Sequence record: NC_048170.1
Length of the DNA stretch: 64,000 nucleotides
Origin: Escherichia phage vB_EcoM_Goslar
Reading direction: 5' to 3' (one strand)
Shown: positions 17,258 to 60,473 of the stretch, in pieces
Layout: each line of letters starts with the position of its first letter
Position numbering within the stretch: position 1 is the stretch's first letter
Translations under genes and position numbers: made by a program
The notes under the pieces: model-generated
What the model saw: the letters and a program-made list of their open reading frames with translations, nothing else
The model's database searches: none
What the model was told of the DNA's origin: nothing

Positions 17258-18469
17258 ATGTTACATGAGGTTTACGAGATGGAAAAATCTATACATACTC
17301 AAACTGGAACTATTGACTATCGCGATTCAGCATATTTGCCGTACACAAATCATCGTTATCGTATATTTGAAGATGGCGAGTTGTACGACTATAAAGAAGA
17401 TAGGGTCGTCCCTTACGAAGTTGTAGACGGTGTCCCTTATGTTGAAATCGATTGGTATAGAGGCATTGGAAAATACGATCTCGGTATGATCATTCTCACC
17501 GTTCTTGAACGGGTTGCTTTACCAGATCACCTTTACGATGAAATTGAATCGTTGTTTGTGGACGGAGATCCGACTAACTTTTCGTATAGCAATCACATCT
17601 ACCGTTTCCGTAATGGGCCGTTAGAAGTTGAGGGATTCGAAGGTTATTGTTATATTCCGTTTGCATCTCGTTACGCGATAAATAAAGAAGGACATTGTAT
17701 TAGTCTTCTTTCGTTGGATCCTATCACGTGGACGAAAACGGTTCAGCAAGGCACACGTCTTGGCGGATACGCTTATCGTAAAGTGGTTCCCGACAGCGGG
17801 TTTACACCGCAGTTATATCGTCACCGAGCTATCATGTTAGCGTTTACGAGATATGATGCTAACGTTGTGAACTTAACTGTAAATCATAAAAACGGAATTA
17901 AAGGTGACGATTGGTTTGACAACCTCGAATGGGCGACATATGCCGAGAACAATCAACATGCTCGTATGGCAGGGTTGTGTATAGGTACGTCAAAACCTGT
18001 TTTGGTTTATGATTACCGTGCACGAATCGAACGTCGTTTTAATAGTATCGCAGAAGCGGAACGTGCTTATCCGTACGTGCCGAAAGGACGTTTCAAATGG
18101 TGGGTAAACAATCCTCCGAAACGTATCCCAGAATGCGATTTATACATCAAGTTTGCCACGGACAATACGCCTTGGCCGGAGTGGAAACTTGGAGAAGATC
18201 GTCGTGTCGAGGACACCGACGGTCGCGGTATTCTCGCTATTAATAAAGAGACGAACGAACGACATGTGTTTCCATCAGTAACTGCTGCCGCAAATGCGTT
18301 AGGAATCTCCTGGATTACCGTAAGACGTCATTGCGATCGTCGTGCAGTACCTACGAAACAGCCTTGGTGTTTTCGTTACGCTGATGATATCGCTGCCATG
18401 CCTGATTTCGATGTTAATAAATTAGTTCCTAAGAAGAAGCGTGTATTTAATGTCCCATTAGAACGATAA
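17258..18469 (+). CDS. HNH homing endonuclease (403 aa)
   Basis: HNH motif LTVNHKNGIKGDDWFDNLEWATYAENNQHA; AGAGAGG RBS; location between polymerase gene segments. Confidence 0.8.
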   Translation: MLHEVYEMEKSIHTQTGTIDYRDSAYLPYTNHRYRIFEDGELYDYKEDRVVPYEVVDGVPYVEIDWYRGIGKYDLGMIILTVLERVALPDHLYDEIESLFVDGDPTNFSYSNHIYRFRNGPLEVEGFEGYCYIPFASRYAINKEGHCISLLSLDPITWTKTVQQGTRLGGYAYRKVVPDSGFTPQLYRHRAIMLAFTRYDANVVNLTVNHKNGIKGDDWFDNLEWATYAENNQHARMAGLCIGTSKPVLVYDYRARIERRFNSIAEAERAYPYVPKGRFKWWVNNPPKRIPECDLYIKFATDNTPWPEWKLGEDRRVEDTDGRGILAINKETNERHVFPSVTAAANALGISWITVRRHCDRRAVPTKQPWCFRYADDIAAMPDFDVNKLVPKKKRVFNVPLER

Positions 18470-33922: not shown

Positions 33923-34426
33923 TTACTTACTGATAACCTCAACGGAATTGGGATCAGCGATCAACGCACGATCGGTAGAACAATTGAAGAAGACCATGCC
34001 AACACCATCGCCGTTCGAGTTCAGGGTTGAACTTGCGTAAGACAATGTTGGTTTATTCATGCGGTAGAAGCGTTCGCTGGTTGCGGTATTGAACCCCAGA
34101 TCAACGTAGTCTTTCACCGTGGTATACAACTGGGTGGACTCGAAAACGGTTACCGGAGAGTCGACGGTAAACTGACTACCTTCATCCACAACCAGAACTT
34201 TATCGTTCCAGATTTCAGTGGTTGAAAACTTCGGTTTCCAATGTTCGAATTCCTGGGTTGCGCCCCAGCAGGAATACACAGCGAGATTGCTGTTCTTCTC
34301 AACAGGTTTCAACCCCACCAGTTGTGTCAGGTCTTTATCCAGGTTCGGTAAGCCTTCCAGCGTAGCGCACCCACCCAGAGAAAGCACCATCAACATACCA
34401 AGAATAATCGCGCAAAGTTTCTTCAT
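33923..34426 (-). CDS. Putative lipoprotein (167 aa)
   Basis: N-terminal signal peptide with lipobox (MKKLCAIILGMLMVLSLGGC). Confidence 0.7.
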   Translation of the reverse strand: MKKLCAIILGMLMVLSLGGCATLEGLPNLDKDLTQLVGLKPVEKNSNLAVYSCWGATQEFEHWKPKFSTTEIWNDKVLVVDEGSQFTVDSPVTVFESTQLYTTVKDYVDLGFNTATSERFYRMNKPTLSYASSTLNSNGDGVGMVFFNCSTDRALIADPNSVEVISK

Positions 34427-39600: not shown

Positions 39601-42600
39601 TTAAATTGTTGGTTTTACATCGCGTAATAGGGCGATATAATAGCCTAATCCTCGGAGGATCTCCCCGCTCCAGAAACCAAAATACATTCCGTCTCTGCCG
39701 AGATTAGCGCTATCTGGTGCAGGACTCCATCCACCATTCATTACGTCATCAACGGTGTAGCGGTTGATGTAGTTTTCAACGATTTCGTTATAAGCATTAA
39801 CCGCAACAGAATAGCCTTTATCGTTGGGATGTCCGTACAACATTGCTAACGACGCACCCGCCAACCATAATCCTGCCATATGACCAGTAAAGTCGTTCGG
39901 GATAAAAGCAGGAGGTTTATCCATCGGAAAATCCGTAGGTGATTGATAAGCGTTTTCCTGTTGATACGTAAACAAGAAATCAATCCAATGACTGATGTAA
40001 GTGGTTAACTTCTCAGGGACAGCCAAACCACGATCGAGCAGTCCAGCATAAAGCCTCACCGCTGAAAAGAAAGCCCTCGGCTGATAACCAGACCATGCTG
40101 TCTGATCGCCGAAATGGTACATCGTAAAATCATTAACTTTTGATCCGCTTGGCGCATCCCAACGATCCCACACGTACGCACTTGCCCCTGGCCCTAAAAC
40201 CCCGAATTTCTGATAATACCACTGCTGTGAGTCATACCAGAAATTCACAACATTCTGAATCATGAGGTCACGTCGTTCAGCCGATACGTCCATATCCAGG
40301 AAGACCCATGGATGCTGGTAGCCGGGATAAGGCTGACCGCGCCAACTGTCGAACGTCGGTGCGTTAGGGATATAGTTGTTAGAGAACGGAATAATACCCG
40401 GAGTATAAGGCAATGGATCCAGACGTTGGTTGACAATCGTACAATCGCCAACACGCAATGTGCCCTCTGCCTCAAAGATTGCTTTTAACGTAAACAGCAT
40501 GGTATATCCGTCATCCGTGGTGTAAGTTGACGGTGGATTGTTGATGGCGTAAAGCTTAAATACCCCTTCAGCGATATCGCTGCCATCAGGCAAGAACAGA
40601 ATTTCAGTTGAACCGTCGCCCCACACAGGTGCGGAAGGTTTAGGGTCAGTATCAGCATGGCCAGGTTGATACCCTGAGAGCCTCCATCCGTTCGCCGAAA
40701 GCGTCAATGTATTTCTTGCTGTGGTGGCCGGTAGCATATACCACCATCGCCAACCATTTGCATCTTCTACACGAACGTTGTAGTCAATCGACGCGAAATA
40801 ACTGACCTGTCTTACGATCTGTTTTGCGGTTGGATTGAATTCAAATTGCCCGCCTGCCGCAGTAAGCTGCGCTTTTAAGAACAACCCATCCCAGGAATCT
40901 TCCGCTGCTTCGCTGAATTCTGTTGTGATTGCGACATCGTCTTTCCAGCCGACTTTATCAGCCGATATCAACACAGAACCTGTAACAGCATCACCGGTTG
41001 GCGTTGAAACTTCATCAACCGCATCAGCAGGAATCAACGAGCCTATTTTGAAATCCCATCCTTTCGGTTCAGCGCTGGAAGGTAATACCAGCTTGTACGT
41101 TTTGGCTTTCGCTTCGGTTTTGTCCAAAGAAAGCGAAAGTGAAATCTCAACCGGAATTGCAATACCTGCCGTATCCTTACCTCCGCAGGTTACACGAAGA
41201 ATTGAATCACGATTGACGCGGAACGGAATGGCCTGCTGTTCAAGATAAATTTGTGCTGAAGATGCTTGAATCACGATCCAGCCATCGGCATCACGTGTGA
41301 TTGTGAACGGTGCTTTCGATGGATAGGTATACGTGTAAGCGATACCATCGGTGTCGTAACGATCGGTTCCTTTTACCTGACGGAAGAACTTATCGTTGGC
41401 GTCGATACGGGTATATTCTTCAATCGTAAACAAAGATGCCTTGTACGCTTTCTGATAACGCTCCTGCTGCGTTAAACGGTATAAGGTGTAGGCTGCTTCA
41501 CAAAACCACTGTTCAGCGTCTGACGCGTTTCCCATGTAGTCTCTGGTGACCGGCACCTGGATCGGTCGGTTATGCTGACACTCGTTCGTTTTGATGAGGT
41601 ATCCGCCATATTCGACAGGAACGCGGGGTGCCCACGCAACCAAATAAGAACCGCTGACGGATTTATCTTTGAGTACGATGGTACCTACCTCATCGTCAGT
41701 ACACGCTTCAAGATCGTCCCCGTCAGCACTTACGTAACGTTTTGTGCGTAACGCAACTTTCTCGATAGGGAACACCGTACCCTTTGTATCCCAGTCAATC
41801 GTCCCATCATCATTGGTTTTGAACACATCGGCGTTCAAATTCTGCCAGCCGAGTTTACCCTCATAGACCTGAACAACAAGATCCATGTATTCCCCGAACG
41901 TTGGTGCCCCATGTGTTATTTTCCCGATACCGTTGGTGAATGTAACCGCTGTGTCATGGAAACCCCCGTGTGTTGGGTAATCGTCTTTTGCAAGAGGATA
42001 ATGAGCCAACACCGGTTGCTTACCATTAACGATCCAGTTAGCGATCCAGCGTGTCGGTGTATCCGGTGGTTCAAGGCCTGCGTAGAACGCTTTTATATAC
42101 GCATCGAACGATGACTCTGCTAATGCGAGATAATGCGCTTTAAGCTTGGTATCATCCGTTGTATGACTGAATATACCCGCACCCAGAATTAACAACGACT
42201 GTCCTTCTGTTGTTGCGTCACCATCCGGTTGTGCTTCTTGTCGTGTTGCTGCAATGAAATGGCGGTTGTTTACCATCACCCCGCTTTCATTTAACACGTA
42301 ATGATCGGTTTCTGGATCGGTAAACGTTCCTGTGTTTCGGGTTAAGAATCTTGCATGACCATAACCAACGAAATTAACCGGCGACGCTGTAATCATCCAT
42401 TTACCGATAAGTTGAGCAACATCATTATAACGCTCGGATGCGGTGATTTGTTTCACGTACCAGTCTTTATGGTTAAATGTCCAAAGCAGGAAGTAATAAG
42501 TTGTATCGATTTCCATCACCGGGAACGTTGGTGTTAACGGCTCCAATGTTAAGTAGTTGCTCCAGTCAATCTGTCCGCCAACAACCGATGGGGTAATCTC

Positions 42601-43197
42601 TAATAACTGACACCATTCATAACGGTCCGGTACACTACTGGACGTTGTTGGTAAAGGTAACTTGTATACACCAGTACGATTCAGATTGAGTGCTTTTCTA
42701 GCCGATCCTAAATCAACATAAATGCTCGATGATACGCTTGCACTATATGCCCCCAAAGCACCTAGCGTTGACCGATACATTGAGATGAACAACGTATCTT
42801 TCCAGTAAGGGTTATCCTTGGTTGGTTCTAAAGCGATTTGTGCGGAGATGCTGTTCCATGTCCCTAACTGGTATGTTGCATTTAAAGATTCTTCCGTGAA
42901 ATAACTTTCTGCAATTGCCAGATGGAACCGCTCGTTCAATAATGCGAGTGCGGCGCGTCCTGAGATATCTTCATTACCCGTTTCCTTCTTCATGATTGCG
43001 CCGAATGGAAACAGTGTCGCGAATGACCGTTTTGGTTTATTAACCGTAACCGTCCCCGTGTAGTTTCCAACACCGTCAAGTTTTTGACTATCGCCAACAG
43101 CAGTGACTGCGATACCATCAACCGGGATATCTGTTTTGTTTAGTGTATTGAGTTGGTCAACCAGATCCTGCTTATCGTCAGGTAAGAATGTCGCCAT
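39601..43197 (-). CDS. Large putative receptor-binding or tailspike-like protein (1198 aa)
   Basis: ORF track; Trp/Tyr/Gly-rich carbohydrate-binding-like composition; locus context; no catalytic motif recognised. Confidence 0.5.
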   Translation of the reverse strand: MATFLPDDKQDLVDQLNTLNKTDIPVDGIAVTAVGDSQKLDGVGNYTGTVTVNKPKRSFATLFPFGAIMKKETGNEDISGRAALALLNERFHLAIAESYFTEESLNATYQLGTWNSISAQIALEPTKDNPYWKDTLFISMYRSTLGALGAYSASVSSSIYVDLGSARKALNLNRTGVYKLPLPTTSSSVPDRYEWCQLLEITPSVVGGQIDWSNYLTLEPLTPTFPVMEIDTTYYFLLWTFNHKDWYVKQITASERYNDVAQLIGKWMITASPVNFVGYGHARFLTRNTGTFTDPETDHYVLNESGVMVNNRHFIAATRQEAQPDGDATTEGQSLLILGAGIFSHTTDDTKLKAHYLALAESSFDAYIKAFYAGLEPPDTPTRWIANWIVNGKQPVLAHYPLAKDDYPTHGGFHDTAVTFTNGIGKITHGAPTFGEYMDLVVQVYEGKLGWQNLNADVFKTNDDGTIDWDTKGTVFPIEKVALRTKRYVSADGDDLEACTDDEVGTIVLKDKSVSGSYLVAWAPRVPVEYGGYLIKTNECQHNRPIQVPVTRDYMGNASDAEQWFCEAAYTLYRLTQQERYQKAYKASLFTIEEYTRIDANDKFFRQVKGTDRYDTDGIAYTYTYPSKAPFTITRDADGWIVIQASSAQIYLEQQAIPFRVNRDSILRVTCGGKDTAGIAIPVEISLSLSLDKTEAKAKTYKLVLPSSAEPKGWDFKIGSLIPADAVDEVSTPTGDAVTGSVLISADKVGWKDDVAITTEFSEAAEDSWDGLFLKAQLTAAGGQFEFNPTAKQIVRQVSYFASIDYNVRVEDANGWRWWYMLPATTARNTLTLSANGWRLSGYQPGHADTDPKPSAPVWGDGSTEILFLPDGSDIAEGVFKLYAINNPPSTYTTDDGYTMLFTLKAIFEAEGTLRVGDCTIVNQRLDPLPYTPGIIPFSNNYIPNAPTFDSWRGQPYPGYQHPWVFLDMDVSAERRDLMIQNVVNFWYDSQQWYYQKFGVLGPGASAYVWDRWDAPSGSKVNDFTMYHFGDQTAWSGYQPRAFFSAVRLYAGLLDRGLAVPEKLTTYISHWIDFLFTYQQENAYQSPTDFPMDKPPAFIPNDFTGHMAGLWLAGASLAMLYGHPNDKGYSVAVNAYNEIVENYINRYTVDDVMNGGWSPAPDSANLGRDGMYFGFWSGEILRGLGYYIALLRDVKPTI

Positions 43198-46507: not shown

Positions 46508-47005
46508 TTACGTGTGTCGTCGTTTACCAAAGAAAATGTGGCTATCTACCACGGTGATATTGGTAGCATGTTTTCTGAAATGTTTAGGGCGAAGATGTTT
46601 CGCGTTAAAGAATACGGCTCCTCGTGTTGGGTCGGCTTTATGGTAAGCCGCAATGTCAGTATAACGTAATGTTGCGACCTCTCGTGCTATTGCTCTTGCT
46701 CGCTCAAAAGCAGCACGATCGCGTATGACAATACGCCTTTGTTTTGTCCAGGGGAATTGACCTCTTTGCAGTACGACGTCTTTGACGTTCGTAGGGAATC
46801 GGTAGTCCATAGATCGATTATGTATTAAAAACGCCACGGAGTATTGCCCTTTTACAGATTCGCCTCTGGCTTCCATATACACAGCACATGCGACGATCTC
46901 TTTCCGGCAATCGATTCTAGGTCCTGCGTTCACTGATGCTTGACTGAACGGTGTAATAAGCAACATAACAAGCCCTAAAATCAACGTGTGTAAAATACCT
47001 TGCAT
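46508..47005 (-). CDS. Putative secreted cell-wall hydrolase, SleB/CwlJ-like (Hydrolase_2-type domain)
   Basis: Signal-peptide-like N-terminus; CAVYMEARGESVKGQYSVAFLIHNR...QFPW matches the conserved SleB-family core. Confidence 0.55.
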   Translation of the reverse strand: MQGILHTLILGLVMLLITPFSQASVNAGPRIDCRKEIVACAVYMEARGESVKGQYSVAFLIHNRSMDYRFPTNVKDVVLQRGQFPWTKQRRIVIRDRAAFERARAIAREVATLRYTDIAAYHKADPTRGAVFFNAKHLRPKHFRKHATNITVVDSHIFFGKRRHT

Positions 47006-47097
47006 CTTAATAACCTCACGATAAGGTGCTGTCCACTGGCGTCTTGATAACGCATCCCGTCATCGGGTTGTTCTATTCAGCGGGCAGCAGGTTAGCG

Positions 47098-47310
47098 TCA
47101 GATGTTTGCCCGACATCCACGACAGAAATAAACGGTACTGAAAATACGGTCTCCTCTGGTTTGGCAATAAACATAACGTTGGATAACAGAACCCATTTCC
47201 CGCATCCAACGCGGTAAAGGTGTACATCGTTTGAAGTCATATAGTTTCTCAAAGATGTTAACCTCTACCGTCGAGCCATAGGTTGTATTTATCCCGAAGG
47301 TATGGCTCAC
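47098..47310 (-). CDS. Possible small protein (70 aa); weak
   Basis: ORF track only; would fill an otherwise noncoding 250-bp gap. Confidence 0.3.
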   Translation of the reverse strand: MSHTFGINTTYGSTVEVNIFEKLYDFKRCTPLPRWMREMGSVIQRYVYCQTRGDRIFSTVYFCRGCRANI

Positions 47311-47578
47311 GATAAATACGTCGATAGACTTGATGCGGTATAAACTTACAATTTACGAGTTCGTCGCTTAATTTATGCCGTCGCTCCATACCGTTGTGAA
47401 TACGACGTATCTCCCGGATATTAAAGGTTGTTTTATTCAAGAGAATAGACATAATGGCGGATCGATGATCCAGATTAAAGATCGCCATCACGCTTCGTAT
47501 CTCGCGTAAAACAACTTCTCTATCGACAAGGATGCGACTGTTGAGCTTAAGATTCTCCGTGATACCCATAACCTTCAT
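47258..47578 (-). CDS. Hypothetical protein (start probably at internal Met MKVMGITENL)
   Basis: ORF track 47258..47662; long overlap with the upstream gene suggests a later start. Confidence 0.5.
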   Translation of the reverse strand: MKVMGITENLKLNSRILVDREVVLREIRSVMAIFNLDHRSAIMSILLNKTTFNIREIRRIHNGMERRHKLSDELVNCKFIPHQVYRRIYREPYLRDKYNLWLDGRG

Positions 47579-47918
47579 CCTCGACACGACGACACATCGG
47601 TAAAAATAAACACCAGCTTGTTGCACTGAGGATCGCCGTTGCGATGATATTTGCGATATCACTCAGTCGAGCATCGACCTGCCACATAACAAGCATAAAA
47701 AGAACGTACGCGAACCCATACACGACAAACCGTTTTATGTTACGTGTCGACCATGTACAAATATACAAAAGGGGAAGCTGCCCTACAACACAAACGATGG
47801 TTCGGATAACGTAATAAACGCGTTCCGTCGATGTTTCAAAATCGATACCCACAGCAAAAATCCCAATCAGTATAAAAGTGATAAAGCAATAGATTTTTGC
47901 GTATTCTTTTAAACTCAT
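47547..47918 (-). CDS. Hypothetical integral membrane protein (123 aa, about 3-4 transmembrane segments)
   Basis: ORF track; hydrophobic segments. Confidence 0.65.
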   Translation of the reverse strand: MSLKEYAKIYCFITFILIGIFAVGIDFETSTERVYYVIRTIVCVVGQLPLLYICTWSTRNIKRFVVYGFAYVLFMLVMWQVDARLSDIANIIATAILSATSWCLFLPMCRRVEDEGYGYHGES

Positions 47919-47934
47919 AACTTTTCCTGTTCGT

Positions 47935-48168
47935 TTATTTGCGTTTTCCTACATTCCTCAACAAGGAAACGATAACGAATACCGCTATCATCAAAAAGAC
48001 GAACCATAACCCTACGTTAATTCGGGCAGCCGGTTCATCTACCATGAAGAACATCATTCCACAAAACCCAATCGCCATCCATGCTAAGACCATTCCTGTT
48101 AATCCCCGTAGTAGCATATGTCCCATCATGAACTCCTTCTTACTTTTTCTGATAAAGCGACGATTCAA
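47935..48168 (-). CDS. Small membrane protein (about 65-77 aa, two hydrophobic segments)
   Basis: ORF track; hydrophobicity. Confidence 0.55.
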   Translation of the reverse strand: MNRRFIRKSKKEFMMGHMLLRGLTGMVLAWMAIGFCGMMFFMVDEPAARINVGLWFVFLMIAVFVIVSLLRNVGKRK

Positions 48169-48302
48169 ATTTTAGAAACACCGCTAACGCGAGTGCGATT
48201 AATAACGCACGTACCCACATACCTCCTTGACAACTGTTATACAACATAAAGACCAGAGCGATGCCGCCCATATGCAGGCGGCACTTATCGAACAGTGTTG
48301 GT

Positions 48303-48530
48303 TTATACATAAGAGATTAAACGTTGAATGATTTTTACTTTACCTTTACCTGGGCCTTTCTTGCAGCGATTCAACAGACGGATACGGGTTCGAGTTACCA
48401 CGTCGCCATCATAATCAGCCTGGAACTGTGATAAAAAAGCAGGCTGTATCGGATCGACACCAGGATTGCTATAGAAAGGATTGAGACTTAAAAGAGAGTT
48501 AGCTGGAATCATCGTATTGTCCTTACTCAA
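48303..48530 (-). CDS. Hypothetical small protein (75 aa)
   Basis: ORF track. Confidence 0.5.
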   Translation of the reverse strand: MSKDNTMIPANSLLSLNPFYSNPGVDPIQPAFLSQFQADYDGDVVTRTRIRLLNRCKKGPGKGKVKIIQRLISYV

Positions 48531-48881
48531 TTATTTACCCAGATAGAGGTATTCACCACCCTGAACAACACCGGTTGCCGGATCGACAAGTATACGAACC
48601 CGTGCGTAGGTCTTGAAAGAGGGGTTGAAAACTTCGAAGTCTGCCACTTTCAATTTCACGCTGGGGTTGGTCGGGTTCTTAACTCCAGGGAGTTCTTTCG
48701 GGGTACCGAAATCAACACCGCATTCTTCAAGGTCTGCTGGTGTCATGCTCTCCATGGCCATGTAGATTGCTTTTGCTTTATCGTAAACTTCTGGGCTATC
48801 CAGCAATCCAGCCTGCGCTGAACCGACAACACTACCGAACAGAATAGCAACAGCAACAAACAATTTAGTTAACGTTTTCAT
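48531..48881 (-). CDS. Secreted/periplasmic small protein (116 aa) with cleavable signal peptide
   Basis: Signal peptide MKTLTKLFVAVAILFGSVVGSAQA. Confidence 0.7.
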   Translation of the reverse strand: MKTLTKLFVAVAILFGSVVGSAQAGLLDSPEVYDKAKAIYMAMESMTPADLEECGVDFGTPKELPGVKNPTNPSVKLKVADFEVFNPSFKTYARVRILVDPATGVVQGGEYLYLGK

Positions 48882-48917
48882 GATATTTTCCTCGAAAGTA
48901 AAATGTTACAATACCTA

Positions 48918-49340
48918 TTAACGTACGGCCACTACACTGTTAGCGCATGCCTGAATATCATCGGTATTTACGATGATGGTTTCGTTAAACGCACGAATAC
49001 GCGCACGACGTGCTTCTTTAAGGCTGGCGATTGCATTAGCAGCTTGATCTGTATTCGCAAGGCTAATAACCGGGATCAAACGCATGTCAGGACTACAGAT
49101 ATTCAATGCTTGGTATACACGTCCATTGATTCCTACGGTATCAGACATCGGATAGTGCGCACGGCATTGAAATTGACCCATGACAACAAGCGAACGATCG
49201 GAGATACCAATCTGATAACGACCGTCTTCGCTGTAGGCGTAGCAGTTATTCCCACGAGCCATCCAGTTAGCCTGTGCTTGCGTGCTAACAAAAGCCAGGG
49301 TGGTGACGATAGCGAATACGATATTTTTGAACAGTTTCAT
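48918..49340 (-). CDS. Secreted/periplasmic protein (~140 aa; start at MKLFKN)
   Basis: Signal peptide MKLFKNIVFAIVTTLAFVSTQAQA; track start 49409 would run through the terminator hairpin of the upstream gene. Confidence 0.7.
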   Translation of the reverse strand: MKLFKNIVFAIVTTLAFVSTQAQANWMARGNNCYAYSEDGRYQIGISDRSLVVMGQFQCRAHYPMSDTVGINGRVYQALNICSPDMRLIPVISLANTDQAANAIASLKEARRARIRAFNETIIVNTDDIQACANSVVAVR

Positions 49341-49373
49341 GATAAAGATCCTTATTGAAATAAAATCGGTATA

Positions 49374-49396
49374 AAGGCCCCCATTTAGGGGGACCT
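49374..49396 (-). terminator. Stem-loop (GGCCCCC / GGGGGACC)
   Basis: Inverted repeat downstream of the gene ending at 49399. Confidence 0.5.
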
Positions 49397-49398
49397 GA

Positions 49399-49716
49399 TT
49401 AGTTTGCACGTAAGAAATGACCCAGAACCGTTACGATTGGAAACAGCCCCGTAACAGTATTATCACCCGAAAACATCATCATTGTTCCGTTAACGGTGAT
49501 GAAACGGATGTCGGTTGCGGACCCATCGATAGCGACAAAACGCATCGAGTTCGGTGGAAGGTCCTCAACCACTTCCACGAGGTACTCGCGATTATCAAAG
49601 GCTTCTTTAACACGACGCATGAAACGAATCAAGGTTCCTTCCGCGTCAGCTTCCAAATGACCTAAGATATCGCGATTATTACGAATAGCAAATACAGCCA
49701 TTTTAAACATACTCAT
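49399..49716 (-). CDS. Hypothetical protein (105 aa)
   Basis: ORF track; preceded by the conserved upstream element. Confidence 0.7.
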   Translation of the reverse strand: MSMFKMAVFAIRNNRDILGHLEADAEGTLIRFMRRVKEAFDNREYLVEVVEDLPPNSMRFVAIDGSATDIRFITVNGTMMMFSGDNTVTGLFPIVTVLGHFLRAN

Positions 49717-54123: not shown

Positions 54124-54657
54124 TTAAGCTCCTTTGTGTTTTACGGACGATGTTAACCAGGACGATCTTACCGTGAAACCCTCAGACTCGTAGAACGCCT
54201 GGGCTTCGTCGTTATCAGCACGAACATCCAGACCGATAGAATGACCACCGCATCGGTAAGCGATGTTACGTGCTTCATTCATCAAGGCGTGGCCGATCCC
54301 GCGTCCACGGTATTCCGGTTTTACAATAATCGATGTAACATCGTGAATACCCATATGGCTCTCTGTATTCACTTCCAAGAGACCCACTGGTACTGAAGCG
54401 ATAGCATCGATCATAACGACCAACTTTGCGGTGTCTGGTAAACGCTTTTCTAATTCTAAAGCATCGTACTCGCGTTTTAAATCGGGGATATTCTCAAACA
54501 TAAACGTGGTAGCCCATGCCTCTGATTCTACATCGTCGAGAATACGGTACAGCTCACGAATCTGTCGTTTATGTGGGTAAAGGTGTGGATCGGCAGCCGT
54601 TGAGGCGATAACGCAATAGAACGGTCGTTCATTAATAACTACTGTTTTGATGCTCAT
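54124..54657 (-). CDS. GNAT-family N-acetyltransferase
   Basis: Acetyl-CoA-binding motif IIVKPEYRGRGIGHALMNEA. Confidence 0.7.
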   Translation of the reverse strand: MSIKTVVINERPFYCVIASTAADPHLYPHKRQIRELYRILDDVESEAWATTFMFENIPDLKREYDALELEKRLPDTAKLVVMIDAIASVPVGLLEVNTESHMGIHDVTSIIVKPEYRGRGIGHALMNEARNIAYRCGGHSIGLDVRADNDEAQAFYESEGFTVRSSWLTSSVKHKGA

Positions 54658-55160
54658 GCTAAAATTCCCTCATTACCTAACAGTCGATTACGATGACGTC
54701 GGTACATTTGACAAAGTGTTGTGATTTGATAATGTTTGTTGTAACGTACCTCGATACGTTTTTGCACCTCTTTCCATGGAAGTTTATCGTATTGCCGATA
54801 ACGATGGATTTCATTTAACATACGAAGACGAGTAGGATCGGTGTTCTTTATCGTCGTGAGCTTCACACGTTGATATCCACGCTGTAGTCCCGATTCGGAA
54901 TACGTGACGTCAAACTCATCTTGAATGATGGTAATGATCTCCCGCCACCGACGGTTCTCGCCGTCACGTAAATGGACAACCCGTGATAAGATATCGTTCC
55001 GATTACGATGACTCAGTTTAATGTTAAGCATTGAAGCAATCGCGCTAATTGCTCTCTGACTCCGTCCTAACGCTTCACCTATTTCTTTCGATGTCATGAC
55101 GCCCGCGTTTCGGCGTATGAATGCGATTTCGGTTGTTGTGTATTCTTTACCTGCTGCCAT
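54654..55160 (-). CDS. Myb/SANT-like HTH DNA-binding protein, paralog 6 of a tandem array
   Basis: Repeated W/Y...EI...R...I modules; C-terminal WREIITIIQDEF...LQRGY and WKEVQKRIEVRY...LCQMY. Confidence 0.6.
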   Translation of the reverse strand: MAAGKEYTTTEIAFIRRNAGVMTSKEIGEALGRSQRAISAIASMLNIKLSHRNRNDILSRVVHLRDGENRRWREIITIIQDEFDVTYSESGLQRGYQRVKLTTIKNTDPTRLRMLNEIHRYRQYDKLPWKEVQKRIEVRYNKHYQITTLCQMYRRHRNRLLGNEGILA

Positions 55161-55675
55161 TTCTTACCACGTGTGTTATAATAGTAACGCTGACAAAGAT
55201 GTGTGTGATGGTACTCCCGTTTGAACTCGACGCTGATAATGCGAGCAACTTCTCTCCAGTTAACTCCTTCATGCCGGAGTGCTGTAATACGGTCTGAAAT
55301 TTTGCACCATTCATCTGGATCGTATCGTCGTAGCTTGAGTCGTCGTATTACGGAGGCGACACTCGCTCTCGATCGGCCAAGATGATTTGACAGTTGTTTA
55401 ACCGAGTATCTGTGGATATTGTCACGAATATAGGAAATCTCGTTGTTCGTATATGCCTCATTGGTTCTCGACGAAGGGAACAGCATATACAACTTATTCT
55501 TAATCGCGCTTTCTGTGCGTTGAAATACAGAAGCCAGCTCACTAACCGGTGGTCTGGGTATCTGGTCCGCGTAATTCTCGAGGCGTGAGAGTTCCTCATC
55601 TGTCCAGCGACGGTATTTGCGCACGGGCAACTCCTTTGTTTTTCGTGTAGTAACACCAACGTTGATACAACGCAT
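55094..55675 (-). CDS. Myb/SANT-like HTH DNA-binding protein, paralog 5 (start uncertain)
   Basis: WTDEELSRL...; ...SVKQLSNHLGRSRASVASVIRRL; ...VNWREVARIISVEF...LCQRYY; track start 55726 overlaps paralog 4. Confidence 0.55.
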   Translation of the reverse strand: MRCINVGVTTRKTKELPVRKYRRWTDEELSRLENYADQIPRPPVSELASVFQRTESAIKNKLYMLFPSSRTNEAYTNNEISYIRDNIHRYSVKQLSNHLGRSRASVASVIRRLKLRRYDPDEWCKISDRITALRHEGVNWREVARIISVEFKREYHHTHLCQRYYYNTRGKKWQQVKNTQQPKSHSYAETRAS

Positions 55676-56099
55676 GTTTATTCGTCGTAATCCCAAATTT
55701 AACAACAACGTCGTATGTGATAACATTCCAATTTTGGGTAACGTTAAGTCGTTCCGCGATAAACGCGATAATCGCTTCCCGTTCTTGCTTTGTTAACGCA
55801 CGACGAATTCCATTAAGCCGTATAAACTGACGAACCGAGTCATACGAACGGTTTAAATCGTACGCAATCTCCCTCAACGATTTTTGTTTGATTACGGACT
55901 TGATGTACGCGCGTTCTTCTTCCGTATACGGTCGATGCTTTTGGCGTTGACGTATTCCCAAACGTCCCAGACGCGCGTCGATGCTGGCGCGTGTTCGTCC
56001 TGTCCGTTGTGCGATTTCATCAATCGTCAGCGACGTGTTCAAGTACAGGTGTATAACATCTTTTAACTCATCGTTACGCCACGGCCGAGGTCGTCCCAT
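55596..56099 (-). CDS. Myb/SANT-like HTH DNA-binding protein, paralog 4
   Basis: WRNDELKDVIHLY...IDEIAQRTGRTRASIDARL; YTEEERAYI...LREIAYDLNRSYDSVRQF; QNWNVITYDVVVKF...LYQRW. Confidence 0.6.
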   Translation of the reverse strand: MGRPRPWRNDELKDVIHLYLNTSLTIDEIAQRTGRTRASIDARLGRLGIRQRQKHRPYTEEERAYIKSVIKQKSLREIAYDLNRSYDSVRQFIRLNGIRRALTKQEREAIIAFIAERLNVTQNWNVITYDVVVKFGITTNKHALYQRWCYYTKNKGVARAQIPSLDR

Positions 56100-56577
56100 C
56101 TTGTATCCCTCTTTTCTTTCTATGATGCCACCAACGCTGATAAACAGCCTGCTTCGTACGTGTTATACCGAAATGCGCATTAACCCGTTCAGCAATGTGG
56201 TGCCAATCCTGTGTTTCTTCTAACAATGTATCAACGAAGGCTATGAAGATCTTAGTATCATCCTCGCTTAACCGCTTGAAACCATGACGGTGTGCTATCG
56301 TTCTAATACTGTTTGGATCCCTGTTTAAATCGCGTGCGAGTTGTTTGTAACTTTTGTGTTTGCAGTGCACTCTGATATATTCCAACTCATCGACACTGAA
56401 ACGTTTATGCGGTTTACGACGTTCAACATTTAAGTATATCAACCTCGATTTAATTGCACCGTACGTTGTTTCCATGATTTCTGCGATTTCACGGATTTTT
56501 AATTTCGGGTGACGATAGTACAATTCCAGCAACTGTTCATCATCCTTACGATTCCATCGTCGTACTGGAGGTTTCAC
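56074..56577 (-). CDS. Myb/SANT-like HTH DNA-binding protein, paralog 3
   Basis: RWNRKDDEQLLELY...IREIAEIMETTYGAIKSRL; ...QDWHHIAERVNAHF...VYQRWW. Confidence 0.6.
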   Translation of the reverse strand: MKPPVRRWNRKDDEQLLELYYRHPKLKIREIAEIMETTYGAIKSRLIYLNVERRKPHKRFSVDELEYIRVHCKHKSYKQLARDLNRDPNSIRTIAHRHGFKRLSEDDTKIFIAFVDTLLEETQDWHHIAERVNAHFGITRTKQAVYQRWWHHRKKRGIQDGTTSAVA

Positions 56578-56590
56578 AACGAGATTTCTC

Positions 56591-57058
56591 CTATTCTACG
56601 CGTTTTAATGCTTGAGTGTAGTAGAGGGCATGAACACCGCTTAACGTGTAATGGGTGTTAAATTCGTTATTGATGATATTCTGTATTCTCTTCCAGGTGT
56701 TATTCTCTTTTCTAAGGGTGTGTATTCGATGATAGATCATCTCTCGACGTTGCGCTTTGCATGCAACAATACCGTAACGGTAGCAGAGTTTAGCGATTGC
56801 GTCCACGCTACGGTTGAACATCGCTGCAGCTTCTTTCACGCTATGTGTCTTAAGATAATCGGCTAACATCACACGTTCTTCGAAACAACAATAGCGGTGA
56901 CGCGACATGAGTTTCCAGCGCTTGCGATTGCGGTTAATTCGACCTTGAACAGAGCCTTCGGTTCGGTCAAGCCGTGCCGCAATCTCTTGCATCGGGATAC
57001 CGTTTCGGTACAGGGTAATCAATATCGCGTCTTCTTCGGGTGTCCAGTCCTTGACCAT
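56591..57058 (-). CDS. Myb/SANT-like HTH DNA-binding protein, paralog 2
   Basis: DWTPEEDAILITLY...MQEIAARLDRTEGSVQGRINRNRKRW; ...NTWKRIQNIINNEF...LYYTQ. Confidence 0.6.
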   Translation of the reverse strand: MVKDWTPEEDAILITLYRNGIPMQEIAARLDRTEGSVQGRINRNRKRWKLMSRHRYCCFEERVMLADYLKTHSVKEAAAMFNRSVDAIAKLCYRYGIVACKAQRREMIYHRIHTLRKENNTWKRIQNIINNEFNTHYTLSGVHALYYTQALKRVE

Positions 57059-57070
57059 AGCGCCACCCCA

Positions 57071-57391
57071 TCAACGTCTTACTTTAAGCGTTATCTTGTT
57101 TCGAAAACAATAACACCGGATGGCGTGTACGCTACGATTCATTATTTCAGCAATCTCTTTTAGCGTATGTTTCTTTGCAAGCGTGGCAACCCTAACCCTT
57201 TCTTCTGGCGTGTATACTCCCCCGCGAGGTGGTAGATCACCCCATCGTTTCCTCAACTTGAGGTAACGTGCGCGAATAGAGCACGGTGTTCGATTCATGC
57301 TTCGCGCTACTTCTTTATAGCTCGCTTTTGGTGATGTACTAAGAATAAGCAGCAACGTTTCATCTTCTTTATCTGTCCAACGTTTACCCAT
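57071..57391 (-). CDS. Myb/SANT-like HTH DNA-binding protein, paralog 1 (two repeats, 106 aa)
   Basis: RWTDKEDETLLLIL...YKEVARSMNRTPCSIRARY; YTPEERVRVATL...LKEIAEIMNRSVHAIRCY. Confidence 0.6.
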   Translation of the reverse strand: MGKRWTDKEDETLLLILSTSPKASYKEVARSMNRTPCSIRARYLKLRKRWGDLPPRGGVYTPEERVRVATLAKKHTLKEIAEIMNRSVHAIRCYCFRNKITLKVRR

Positions 57392-57395
57392 TTTC

Positions 57396-60473
<3,078 letters not shown>

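What the first reader, a model, noticed from the sequence alone, without database searches (positions are those of the whole stretch)
46508..49409. Cluster of envelope-targeted proteins: secreted SleB-like hydrolase, small membrane proteins and two signal-peptide proteins
Within 3 kb there is a signal-peptide SleB/CwlJ-like peptidoglycan hydrolase, three small hydrophobic proteins and two small proteins with cleavable signal peptides. A SleB-type hydrolase is, to my knowledge, not a common phage endolysin type. This could be an atypical secretory lysis cassette (hydrolase with holin-like or spanin-like partners) or a set of periplasmic host-modulation factors.
Basis: partly seen in the sequence, partly recalled or inferred. 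Interest (0 to 1): 0.55.

Follow-up and report, generated by a model that had tools for sequence, protein, structure and literature searches.

The report
Secreted SleB-like hydrolase gene block
A jumbo E. coli phage carries a conserved block of genes for exported and membrane proteins, built around a secreted SleB-type cell-wall hydrolase; this enzyme type is already common in large phages, and it is probably an accessory because the phage has an ordinary endolysin elsewhere.

Summary
On the minus strand of 46508-49340 lie a signal-peptide Hydrolase_2 (SleB/CwlJ-type) protein, three small membrane proteins (56, 63 and 123 aa) and two signal-peptide proteins (116 and 140 aa).

- **Not rare.** Signal-peptide Hydrolase_2 genes occur in 1037 phage records, including T5-like phages, Vequintavirinae and Stephanstirmvirinae. 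In the phages whose lysis genes the cited papers describe, they sit beside a conventional peptidoglycan hydrolase.
- **A conventional endolysin exists.** Contigs of this phage lineage (phiKZ-like, about 237 kb, from E. coli and Salmonella) encode a cytoplasmic GH108 + PG_binding_3 endolysin roughly 95 kb away. No holin was found elsewhere.
- **Best reading.** This is a conserved accessory envelope module whose exported muralytic enzyme supplements lysis or remodels the wall.

Three new points:
- The two secreted proteins are fused into one protein in other bacteria.
- The 123-aa membrane protein is dispensable.
- The 252 nt just upstream of the hydrolase are 98-99% identical in three of four relatives (92% in the fourth), where flanking genes have diverged 22-63% at fourfold sites. 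They appear noncoding and fold strongly (z = -5.1).

No function was tested. New member of a known kind; interest is modest.

The parts
46508..47005 (-). hyd165: exported SleB/CwlJ-type (Hydrolase_2) peptidoglycan hydrolase. Predicted Sec signal peptide at residues 1-23 (SQA|S); candidate catalytic Glu45 in the motif YMEARGE.
   Evidence: Pfam PF07486 at E=3.9e-16. PHROG endolysin families match. It aligns with SleB structures 4f55 and 4fet across the YGESRGE motif. It scores 41 bits against TIGR02869, whose cut-off is 236.5. It is the most conserved protein of the block, 88% identical in L017 with the first 50 residues identical.
47006..47257 (-). Ultra-conserved, apparently noncoding 252-nt block directly upstream of the hydrolase. 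It is a predicted highly structured leader or ncRNA, with the Shine-Dalgarno GAGG paired in the predicted structure.
   Evidence: It is 99%, 98%, 98% and 92% identical in L017, L011, L003 and L018. Flanking genes are 58-85% identical, with 22-63% divergence at fourfold sites. MFE is -102.6 kcal/mol, z=-5.09. No reading frame shows an excess of synonymous changes, and every frame contains stops. There is no Rfam match, no tRNA and no similar phage DNA. No covariation is available.
47258..47569 (-). p103: small basic soluble protein of unknown function, possibly DNA-binding.
   Evidence: It is conserved in all relatives but diverges quickly, 56% identity in L017. The only family match is a weak hit to CaiF (E=0.026).
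47547..47918 (-). tm123: small membrane protein with four transmembrane segments; accessory and dispensable.
   Evidence: Hydropathy shows four segments. It is 46% identical in L017 and absent from the IMG/VR relative. No family match was found.
47935..48126 (-). tm63: membrane protein with two transmembrane segments and a basic C-terminus (RNVGKRK). Its topology is that of a class II holin or pinholin.
   Evidence: Hydropathy. It is 78% identical in L017 and kept in every relative. No holin family match was found.
48140..48310 (-). tm56: very small membrane protein with one or two transmembrane segments. Its start overlaps the end of p69.
   Evidence: Hydropathy. It is intact in all relatives and 82% identical in L017.
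48303..48512 (-). p69: small soluble protein with a conserved basic C-terminus; function unknown.
   Evidence: It is 71% identical in L017 and shows indels among close relatives.
48531..48881 (-). sp116: secreted protein. The mature domain has two helices and a four-stranded sheet, a cystatin-like or PepSY-like fold.
48918..49340 (-). sp140: secreted protein with four invariant cysteines and an IalB-like beta fold.

Best explanation
The region is a conserved, lineage-specific accessory module of envelope-directed genes in a phiKZ-like jumbo phage of E. coli and Salmonella.

Its one recognisable enzyme is a SleB/CwlJ-type muralytic enzyme, probably a lytic transglycosylase. A cleavable Sec signal peptide sends it to the periplasm, so it reaches peptidoglycan without needing a holin. 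It is not the phage's principal endolysin. That role fits a cytoplasmic GH108+PG_binding_3 muramidase encoded about 95 kb away on contigs of the same phage lineage. The exported hydrolase therefore most likely supplements lysis or remodels the wall. Signal-peptide Hydrolase_2 genes likewise sit beside a conventional peptidoglycan hydrolase in Certrevirus, Septuagintavirus and Phapecoctavirus.

An exported wall hydrolase is dangerous to the infected cell, so it is probably held in check. The candidate controls, all inferred, are:
- the ultra-conserved structured leader that pairs its ribosome-binding site;
- the small two-segment membrane proteins tm63 and tm56, which might trigger it by collapsing the membrane potential;
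- the co-conserved secreted pair sp140+sp116, which might act as periplasmic partners.

**Shown:** domain identity, a conserved catalytic motif, export signals judged by rule, conserved synteny, the sp140-sp116 fusion, a second endolysin-type gene, and conservation of the leader.

**Inferred:** enzymatic activity, timing, any regulatory role of the leader, and any interaction among the proteins.
For: **The enzyme**
- It matches Hydrolase_2 above the Pfam cut-off.
- The YxE(A/S)RGE motif aligns with SleB structures and is present in all phage homologues inspected.
- It is the most conserved protein of the block.
- A homologue was reported to be toxic when expressed in E. coli (PMC7344957).

**Export**
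- The N-terminus is hydrophobic and Leu/Ile-rich with SQA|S, and it is identical in relatives.
- Homologues in five other phage groups also start with signal-peptide-like sequences.

**Not the main endolysin**
- A GH108 (7e-19) + PG_binding_3 (2e-18) protein, also matching 'holin-associated N-acetylmuramidase' (7e-20), is encoded in three 238-249 kb contigs. These overlap the IMG/VR genome that carries the cluster at 92-96% identity over 11 kb.
- That protein's 175-member cluster sits on 235-259 kb contigs from E. coli and Salmonella.
- Hydrolase_2 coexists with a second lytic enzyme in Certrevirus, Septuagintavirus and Phapecoctavirus.

**A functional module**
- Gene order is conserved in relatives at about 80% DNA identity.
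- sp140 and sp116 are fused in P0009 and P0010.

**The leader**
-.
Against: - No activity, localisation or expression data exist.
- Signal peptides were judged by rule, not by a trained predictor.
- The GH108 gene was not read on the window's own contig. The link rests on overlapping contigs of the same lineage.
- About 88 kb (37%) of the genome was not examined.
- The GH108 gene lies next to tail-fibre genes, so a virion-associated role is not formally excluded.
- The sp140/sp116 family occurs without any Hydrolase_2 neighbour in bacterial islands. This argues against an obligate partnership with the hydrolase.
- An adjacent small membrane protein was seen next to the Hydrolase_2 gene in only one of five other phages.
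- The leader shows no covariation.
- The clustering statistic is weak.
Confidence: 0.5

Rival explanations
1. This is a genuine secretory lysis cassette. tm63, perhaps with tm56 as an antiholin, is a pinholin-like protein. When it depolarises the membrane, it activates the already exported hydrolase, and this route determines when lysis happens. The GH108 enzyme would be redundant or tail-associated.
For: - tm63 has the size, two transmembrane segments and basic C-terminus of class II holins, and both tm63 and tm56 are kept in all relatives.
- The hydrolase lies two genes downstream on the same strand.
- In Escherichia phage A73, the signal-peptide Hydrolase_2 gene overlaps a 70-aa protein with two transmembrane segments and a charged C-terminus.
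- The GH108 gene sits beside tail-fibre genes with no holin-like neighbour in the 1.1 kb that was read.
Against: - No holin family matches tm63, tm56 or tm123.
- There is no spanin pair in the cluster.
- The other Hydrolase_2 loci inspected lack an adjacent membrane protein.
- GH108+PG_binding_3 is a standard endolysin architecture (PMC8223927).
- The N-terminus is a classical cleavable signal, not a signal-anchor-release (SAR) domain.
Confidence: 0.2
2. This is not a lysis device. The genes are accessory, moron-like envelope modifiers acting during infection or in a carrier state. Possible roles are wall remodelling to accommodate a swollen cell with a phage nucleus, or exclusion of superinfecting phages. 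The genes may act independently of one another.
For: - Homologues of the secreted pair are cargo of bacterial mobile islands with no hydrolase nearby.
- tm123 is present or absent among relatives.
- None of the eight non-hydrolase proteins has a homologue in 50,697 phage records.
- The phage occurs as 235-259 kb contigs in E. coli and Salmonella isolate assemblies, which is compatible with long-term carriage.
- The clustering statistic is weak.
Against: - Order and content are conserved across diverged relatives, with strong purifying selection.
- Genes overlap or lie 14-38 nt apart, apart from the 252-nt leader, and all are on one strand, which suggests co-expression.
- A homologous hydrolase was reported as toxic and implicated in lysis.
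Confidence: 0.25
3. The hydrolase is a virion-associated lysin that opens the wall during DNA injection.
For: Large myoviruses carry tail-associated lysins, and the gene lies a few genes upstream of tail genes.
Against: - A cleavable export signal would remove the protein from the cytoplasm, where virions assemble.
- It is a small single-domain protein.
- The SleB-domain protein of jumbo phage PA5oct was not detected in virions.
Confidence: 0.03

Closest known systems
Signal-peptide SleB-like 'cell wall hydrolase' of large enterobacterial phages, e.g. Pectobacterium phage CB7 gp83, Cronobacter CR3_087/CR9_095, Escherichia phage A73_73 and T5-like 'cell wall hydrolase'
   Same: - Single Hydrolase_2 domain of about 150-180 aa.
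- N-terminal signal peptide and the YxE(A/S)RGE motif.
- Encoded outside a classical lysis cassette.
- Coexists with a second, conventional peptidoglycan hydrolase where lysis genes are described, in Certrevirus, Septuagintavirus and Phapecoctavirus.
   Different: - Only 30-38% identical; nothing between 40% and 87% identity was found.
- The host phage is a phiKZ-like jumbo phage.
- It is embedded in its own set of orphan secreted and membrane proteins, behind an ultra-conserved structured leader.
Bacillus SleB / CwlJ spore-cortex lytic enzymes with the PepSY protein YpeB
   Same: - Same catalytic domain family and conserved Glu motif.
- A small co-encoded exported protein (sp116) whose predicted fold resembles PepSY and cystatin-type domains.
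   Different: - No N-terminal peptidoglycan-binding domain.
- Far below the SleB equivalog cut-off, 41 against 236.5 bits.
- No PepSY sequence match.
- sp116 homologues occur without any Hydrolase_2 gene nearby.
Exported endolysins: signal-anchor-release (SAR) endolysins with pinholins (phage 21, P1) and signal-peptide endolysins (Oenococcus fOg44 Lys44). Named from general knowledge, not tested here.
   Same: The muralytic enzyme would be delivered to the periplasm by the Sec system before lysis, with a small two-segment membrane protein encoded nearby.
   Different: - The N-terminus is Leu/Ile-rich with a cleavage motif, not a Gly/Ala-rich releasable anchor.
- The catalytic family is different.
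- The phage also has a conventional cytoplasmic endolysin.
Bartonella invasion-associated protein B (IalB, PDB 3dtd)
   Different: There is no sequence-level match, identity is 10%, and the model has moderate confidence (pLDDT 69.6). I know of no defined biochemical function for IalB (general knowledge, not checked here).

Membership tests
SleB/CwlJ catalytic domain (Pfam Hydrolase_2, PF07486) | Score above the Pfam gathering cut-off over the whole domain | tested here: met
   60 bits against a cut-off of 27, residues 48-159 covering profile positions 1-100 of 100.
SleB/CwlJ catalytic domain (Pfam Hydrolase_2, PF07486) | Conserved catalytic glutamate in the Y-x-E-(A/S)-R-G-E motif | tested here: met
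   YMEARGE (Glu45) aligns with YGESRGE of 4f55 and 4fet, and the motif is present in all phage homologues read. That this particular Glu is the catalytic one rests on my recollection of the SleB literature. PMC12331253 confirms only that a catalytic Glu is essential.
SleB/CwlJ catalytic domain (Pfam Hydrolase_2, PF07486) | Muralytic (lytic transglycosylase) activity | not testable with these tools
   Needs a zymogram and muropeptide analysis.
Spore cortex-lytic enzyme SleB proper (NCBIfam TIGR02869 equivalog) | Full-length match, including the N-terminal peptidoglycan-binding domain | tested here: not met
   41.4 bits against a cut-off of 236.5. Only the C-terminal catalytic part aligns.
Classical phage lysis cassette (holin - endolysin - spanins) | A recognisable holin next to the endolysin | tested here: inconclusive
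   tm63 and tm56 have holin-like size and topology, but they match no holin family in Pfam, PHROGs or NCBIfam.
Classical phage lysis cassette (holin - endolysin - spanins) | A spanin pair (type II membrane protein plus outer-membrane lipoprotein) or a unimolecular spanin in the cassette | tested here: not met
   sp116 and sp140 end their signals with AQA|G and AQA|N and have no lipobox cysteine. There is no embedded or overlapping lipoprotein ORF.
Classical phage lysis cassette (holin - endolysin - spanins) | The enzyme is the phage's principal or only endolysin | tested here: not met
   A GH108+PG_binding_3 protein is encoded elsewhere in the same phage lineage.
Signal-anchor-release (SAR) endolysin | Uncleaved, weakly hydrophobic N-terminal transmembrane domain rich in Gly/Ala/Ser/Thr | tested here: not met
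   The core ILHTLILGLVMLLITPF has only 3 of 17 such residues and KD 2.27, with Pro at -5 and SQA|S. This is a rule-based judgement only.
SleB-YpeB type enzyme/partner pair (PepSY partner) | Partner protein carries PepSY domains | tested here: inconclusive
SleB-YpeB type enzyme/partner pair (PepSY partner) | Consistent co-occurrence of partner and hydrolase | tested here: not met
   Homologues P0007 and P0009 lie in bacterial islands with no Hydrolase_2 gene within 6-8 kb.
IalB family (for sp140) | Sequence-profile match to the family | tested here: not met

The most novel reading that the evidence does not exclude
The block would be a pre-positioned, doubly restrained wall-cleaving device. A 252-nt ultra-conserved structured leader gates translation of a Sec-exported lytic transglycosylase. 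The split two-domain periplasmic protein sp140+sp116 (IalB-like plus cystatin/PepSY-like) then holds the enzyme inactive in the periplasm until tm63 and tm56 depolarise the membrane. This would be a Gram-negative phage analogue of the SleB-YpeB arrangement of spores, combined with a new phage riboregulator.
Probability: 0.12. Interest if true: 0.6.

Novelty: new member of a known kind. Interest (0 to 1): 0.3.

Why it matters
Signal-peptide SleB-type hydrolases are conserved in many large virulent phages of enterobacteria, usually beside a normal endolysin, yet their role has never been established. This phage lineage occurs widely, as 235-259 kb contigs in E. coli and Salmonella isolate assemblies and in metagenomes. 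It offers a compact, conserved context for the enzyme: neighbouring membrane proteins, a secreted protein pair and a remarkably conserved structured leader. Together these could be used to test why a phage exports a second wall hydrolase. The practical value is modest. It provides one more candidate muralytic enzyme, one candidate regulatory RNA, and a caution against annotating every Hydrolase_2 gene as 'the endolysin'.

Tried and rejected
1. **DNA similarity searches.** The region has no match in the phage, plasmid or complete E. coli genome collections.
2. **Concatenated query, tblastn.** The eight non-hydrolase proteins joined into one query found nothing in 50,697 phage records.
3. **Concatenated query, large protein index.** The same query returned 8000 word candidates and no hit. 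This is an artefact of concatenation and wasted one search.
4. **tm123 as the holin.** Rejected, because the gene is absent from the IMG/VR relative.
5. **The 55-aa ORF that gene callers place at 47073-47240.** Rejected as coding. Substitutions are almost all nonsynonymous in every frame, and every frame has stops. I had first assigned the wrong frame (47060-47227), which is interrupted in 2 of the 4 gap-free relatives.
6. **sp116 as a PepSY/YpeB-like partner.** The fold resemblance is generic and co-occurrence fails, so it is kept only as a lead.
7. **Synteny with Serratia PCH45 and Salmonella SPLA10.** These are the nearest described phages by tail protein (49%), and I hoped they would locate the endolysin. 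Their GH19 and SLT-like enzymes have no homologue here, and few neighbouring genes are shared.
8. **A repeated motif to fetch the whole genome in one scan.** None of 14 nt or longer exists.
9. **Rfam, tRNA and blastn searches for the leader.** All negative.
10. **Covariation test of the leader.** The sequences are too similar to be informative.


Full report
**What is there**

All genes of the finding lie on the minus strand and are closely packed, overlapping or 14-38 nt apart except for the 252-nt gap before hyd165. In transcription order they are:

| Gene | Coordinates | Features |
|---|---|---|
| sp140 | 48918-49340 | signal peptide ending AQA\|N |
| sp116 | 48531-48881 | signal peptide ending AQA\|G |
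| p69 | 48303-48512 | small soluble protein |
| tm56 | 48140-48310 | one or two hydrophobic segments |
| tm63 | 47935-48126 | two transmembrane segments, C-terminus RNVGKRK |
| tm123 | 47547-47918 | four hydrophobic segments |
| p103 | 47258-47569 | small, basic, soluble |
| (gap) | 47006-47257 | 252 nt, apparently noncoding |
| hyd165 | 46508-47005 | exported Hydrolase_2 enzyme |

hyd165 has a Leu/Ile-rich hydrophobic core at residues 4-20, a proline at -5 and SQA|S. It matches Pfam Hydrolase_2 at E=3.9e-16, 60 bits against a cut-off of 27, and also PHROG endolysin families. Its YMEARGE motif aligns with YGESRGE of the SleB structures 4f55 and 4fet. It scores only 41 bits against the SleB equivalog model, whose cut-off is 236.5, and it has no peptidoglycan-binding domain. 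The one adjustment is that sp140 most likely starts at 49340, not 49409.

**Are the genes real, and is the cluster more than chance?**

The exact hydrolase protein is encoded on at least 23 metagenomic contigs of up to 236 kb. Three levels of relative were read:
- about 95-97% DNA identity (L002-L007);
- about 91% (IMG/VR UViG);
- about 80% (L017 and L018; a protein shared with them carries an E. coli O157 name in NCBI).

All genes except tm123 stay intact and in the same order. Synonymous changes dominate in sp140 (20:3) and sp116 (21:2). Protein identities to L017 are hyd165 88%, tm56 82%, sp140 81%, tm63 78%, p69 71%, sp116 66%, p103 56% and tm123 46%. tm123 is missing from the IMG/VR relative, so it cannot be an essential component.

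The density of hydrophobic or exported proteins is only modestly unusual. Permutation gives P=0.02 to 0.19, depending on the hydropathy threshold.

**Which phage is it?**

The window carries several markers of a phiKZ-like jumbo myovirus:
- a PhiKZ_gp91 vertex protein and a tail tube protein;
- a phiKZ-type RNA polymerase beta fragment;
- phiKZ internal head proteins just outside the window.

Its contigs measure 235-259 kb. They occur in metagenomes and in NCBI assemblies of E. coli and Salmonella isolates. The nearest described phages by tail protein are Serratia PCH45 and Salmonella SPLA10, at 49%. Almost nothing else in that neighbourhood is shared with SPLA10.

**Is a SleB-type hydrolase unusual in phages?**

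It is not:
- tblastn finds relatives in 1037 phage records, including T5-like phages, Vequintavirinae and Stephanstirmvirinae.
- Every homologue I read also begins with a signal-peptide-like sequence: A73, Arash, atrejo, CR9 and 05F01.
- Published surveys list Hydrolase_2 among the catalytic domains typical of lysins from Gram-negative-infecting phages (PMC8223927).
- For Certrevirus CB7, the SleB-like protein is reported as conserved throughout Vequintavirinae, signal-peptide-bearing and toxic in E. coli. It coexists with a separate M15 peptidase (PMC7344957).
- Septuagintavirus has an M15C peptidase plus the SleB-like protein. Phapecoctavirus has a Phage_lysozyme protein plus Hydrolase_2. 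Jumbo phage PA5oct has a SleB-domain protein that is absent from virions.

**Is there a conventional endolysin elsewhere?**

Within the window and 10 kb on either side, no other peptidoglycan-hydrolase family was found by Pfam or PHROGs. I then walked along the 237.5-kb IMG/VR genome and related metagenome contigs. A further ~60 kb scanned as one batch contained none.

The next 10 kb did. L030:1158-1793(-) encodes a 211-aa protein with no signal peptide or transmembrane segment. It matches Glyco_hydro_108 (7e-19) plus PG_binding_3 (2e-18), and NCBIfam 'holin-associated N-acetylmuramidase' (7e-20).

The link to this phage rests on three observations:
- The gene sits at the same place in three 238-249 kb contigs, at 91-100% identity.
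- Those contigs overlap the IMG/VR genome that carries the Hydrolase_2 cluster at 92-96% identity over 11 kb.
- Its protein cluster has 175 members, named GH108 protein from E. coli and Salmonella, on 235-259 kb contigs.

In IMG/VR coordinates the GH108 gene lies at about 66-67 kb and the hydrolase at 209.5 kb, roughly 95 kb apart the short way round. No holin or spanin was identified anywhere, but about 88 kb (37%) of the genome remains unread.

**The two secreted proteins**

An exhaustive profile search with sp140 against 1.84 billion representatives found only two distant homologues, P0009 and P0010 (230-234 aa). Their N-terminal halves align with sp140 and share four invariant cysteines. 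Their C-terminal halves align with sp116: BLASTP E=2e-5 for the single comparison, with ten invariant columns. sp140 and sp116 are thus the two halves of a protein that is fused elsewhere, which is good evidence that they work together.

The resemblance to the SleB-YpeB pairing is tempting, but it fails as a membership claim. There is no PepSY sequence match. The homologues also sit in bacterial islands without any Hydrolase_2 gene:
- P0007 lies after MBOAT-fragment, DUF459 and Ape1-like SGNH genes.
- P0009 is cargo of a CP4-type island with CbtA/CbeA, RadC and an antirestriction gene.

**An unexpected conserved noncoding block**

The 252 nt between p103 and the hydrolase start (47006-47257) are 99% identical in L017 and 98% in the IMG/VR relative. 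In L018 they are 92% identical, and only the last ~40 nt before the ribosome-binding site differ. The flanking genes are 58-85% identical, with 22-63% of fourfold-degenerate sites changed.

Gene callers place a 55-aa ORF there. However, the eight variable positions are nonsynonymous in essentially every frame, and every frame has a stop. The RNA is predicted to fold far better than shuffled controls: -102.6 kcal/mol, z=-5.09, 0 of 100 shuffles. In the consensus structure the GAGG ribosome-binding site is paired.

There is no covariation to test the structure, because the sequences are too alike. There is no Rfam family, tRNA, second copy or similar phage DNA. I read it as a regulatory leader or small RNA tied to the hydrolase, but this is inference.

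**How it most likely works**

The most economical reading has the following steps.

*Shown:*
- The phage encodes a conventional cytoplasmic muramidase and, far away, a Sec-exported SleB-type enzyme with an intact catalytic motif.
- The exported enzyme sits in a conserved co-oriented block with two small membrane proteins, a two-part secreted protein and a highly conserved structured leader.

*Inferred:*
- The exported enzyme reaches the wall independently of a holin.
- It therefore has to be kept low or inactive until late. The candidate controls are the leader, the membrane proteins and perhaps the secreted pair.
- It then helps to dismantle or remodel peptidoglycan.

I put this at about 0.5. 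Two rivals remain:
- A true pinholin-plus-secreted-endolysin cassette that sets lysis timing, at about 0.2. It is supported by tm63's topology and the A73 arrangement, and weakened by the GH108 gene, the absence of spanins and the lack of holin family matches.
- A set of independent envelope-modifying accessory genes, at about 0.25. It is supported by the mobile-island homologues and the tm123 polymorphism.

A virion role is unlikely, given the export signal.

**Verdict**

The hydrolase is a new, fairly isolated member of a known and widespread kind: at most 38% identical to described phage proteins, with nothing between 40% and 87% identity found. The surrounding orphan proteins and the conserved leader are new but uncharacterised. 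Interest is modest.

Noticed in passing
window 47006-47257 (minus strand): This 252-nt apparently noncoding block is 98-99% identical in three of four relatives (92% in L018), although their flanking genes have diverged 22-63% at fourfold sites. It has a strong predicted RNA structure (z=-5.1) and no Rfam match. The 55-aa ORF that gene callers place here is probably spurious.
   Followed up: partly
L030:1158-1793 (minus strand); also in L031 and L033: A canonical GH108+PG_binding_3 endolysin gene of the same phage lineage lies next to tail-fibre and Peptidase_S74 genes, about 95 kb from the Hydrolase_2 cluster. No holin-like neighbour appears in the 1.1 kb read downstream.
   Followed up: partly
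whole window; records named: This phiKZ-like phage appears as single 235-259 kb contigs, and one of 159 kb, in NCBI assemblies of E. coli and Salmonella isolates (e.g. GCA_008106945.1, GCA_020395325.1, GCA_026066175.1) and in many metagenomes. That suggests frequent carriage in cultured isolates. It is absent from the phage, plasmid and complete E. coli genome collections searched.
   Followed up: no
L019:1-6580 and L038:3659-12419: The sp116 homologue P0007 lies in an E. coli chromosomal island after MBOAT-fragment, DUF459 and Ape1_N/SGNH genes and before a sulfatase-family gene. The fused sp140-sp116 homologue P0009 is cargo of a CP4-type island that also carries a GTPase, DUF932, an antirestriction gene, RadC and CbtA/CbeA.
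   Followed up: partly
window 47547-47918: The gene for the four-segment membrane protein tm123 is present in the window and in L017 but deleted in the IMG/VR relative. It is a presence/absence polymorphism inside an otherwise conserved block.
   Followed up: yes
window 60162-60473 (minus strand): A 103-aa protein with two or three hydrophobic segments and a very highly charged C-terminus ([30 protein letters not shown]) looks holin-like in its layout. It lies just upstream of the NAD-dependent DNA ligase and matches no family.
   Followed up: no
window 33923-34426 (minus strand): A 167-aa predicted lipoprotein (lipobox LGGC) lies directly after the tail-fibre assembly gene and matches PHROG 9559 (unknown function). 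It might be a receptor-masking or exclusion lipoprotein.
   Followed up: no
window 54654-57391 (minus strand): A run of five or six small paralogous proteins carries Myb-like or sigma-70 region-4-like helix-turn-helix motifs, next to a GNAT acetyltransferase.
   Followed up: no
window 17258-18469 (plus strand): An HNH plus NUMOD1 homing-endonuclease-like gene lies immediately after the DNA polymerase gene.
   Followed up: no
window 39601-43197 compared with L012 (SPLA10): The 1198-aa tail protein is 49% identical to those of Serratia PCH45 and Salmonella SPLA10. Almost none of SPLA10's neighbouring genes, including its sheath, terminase and GH19 endolysin, has a detectable homologue here. This points to a mosaic origin for the tail protein.
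   Followed up: partly
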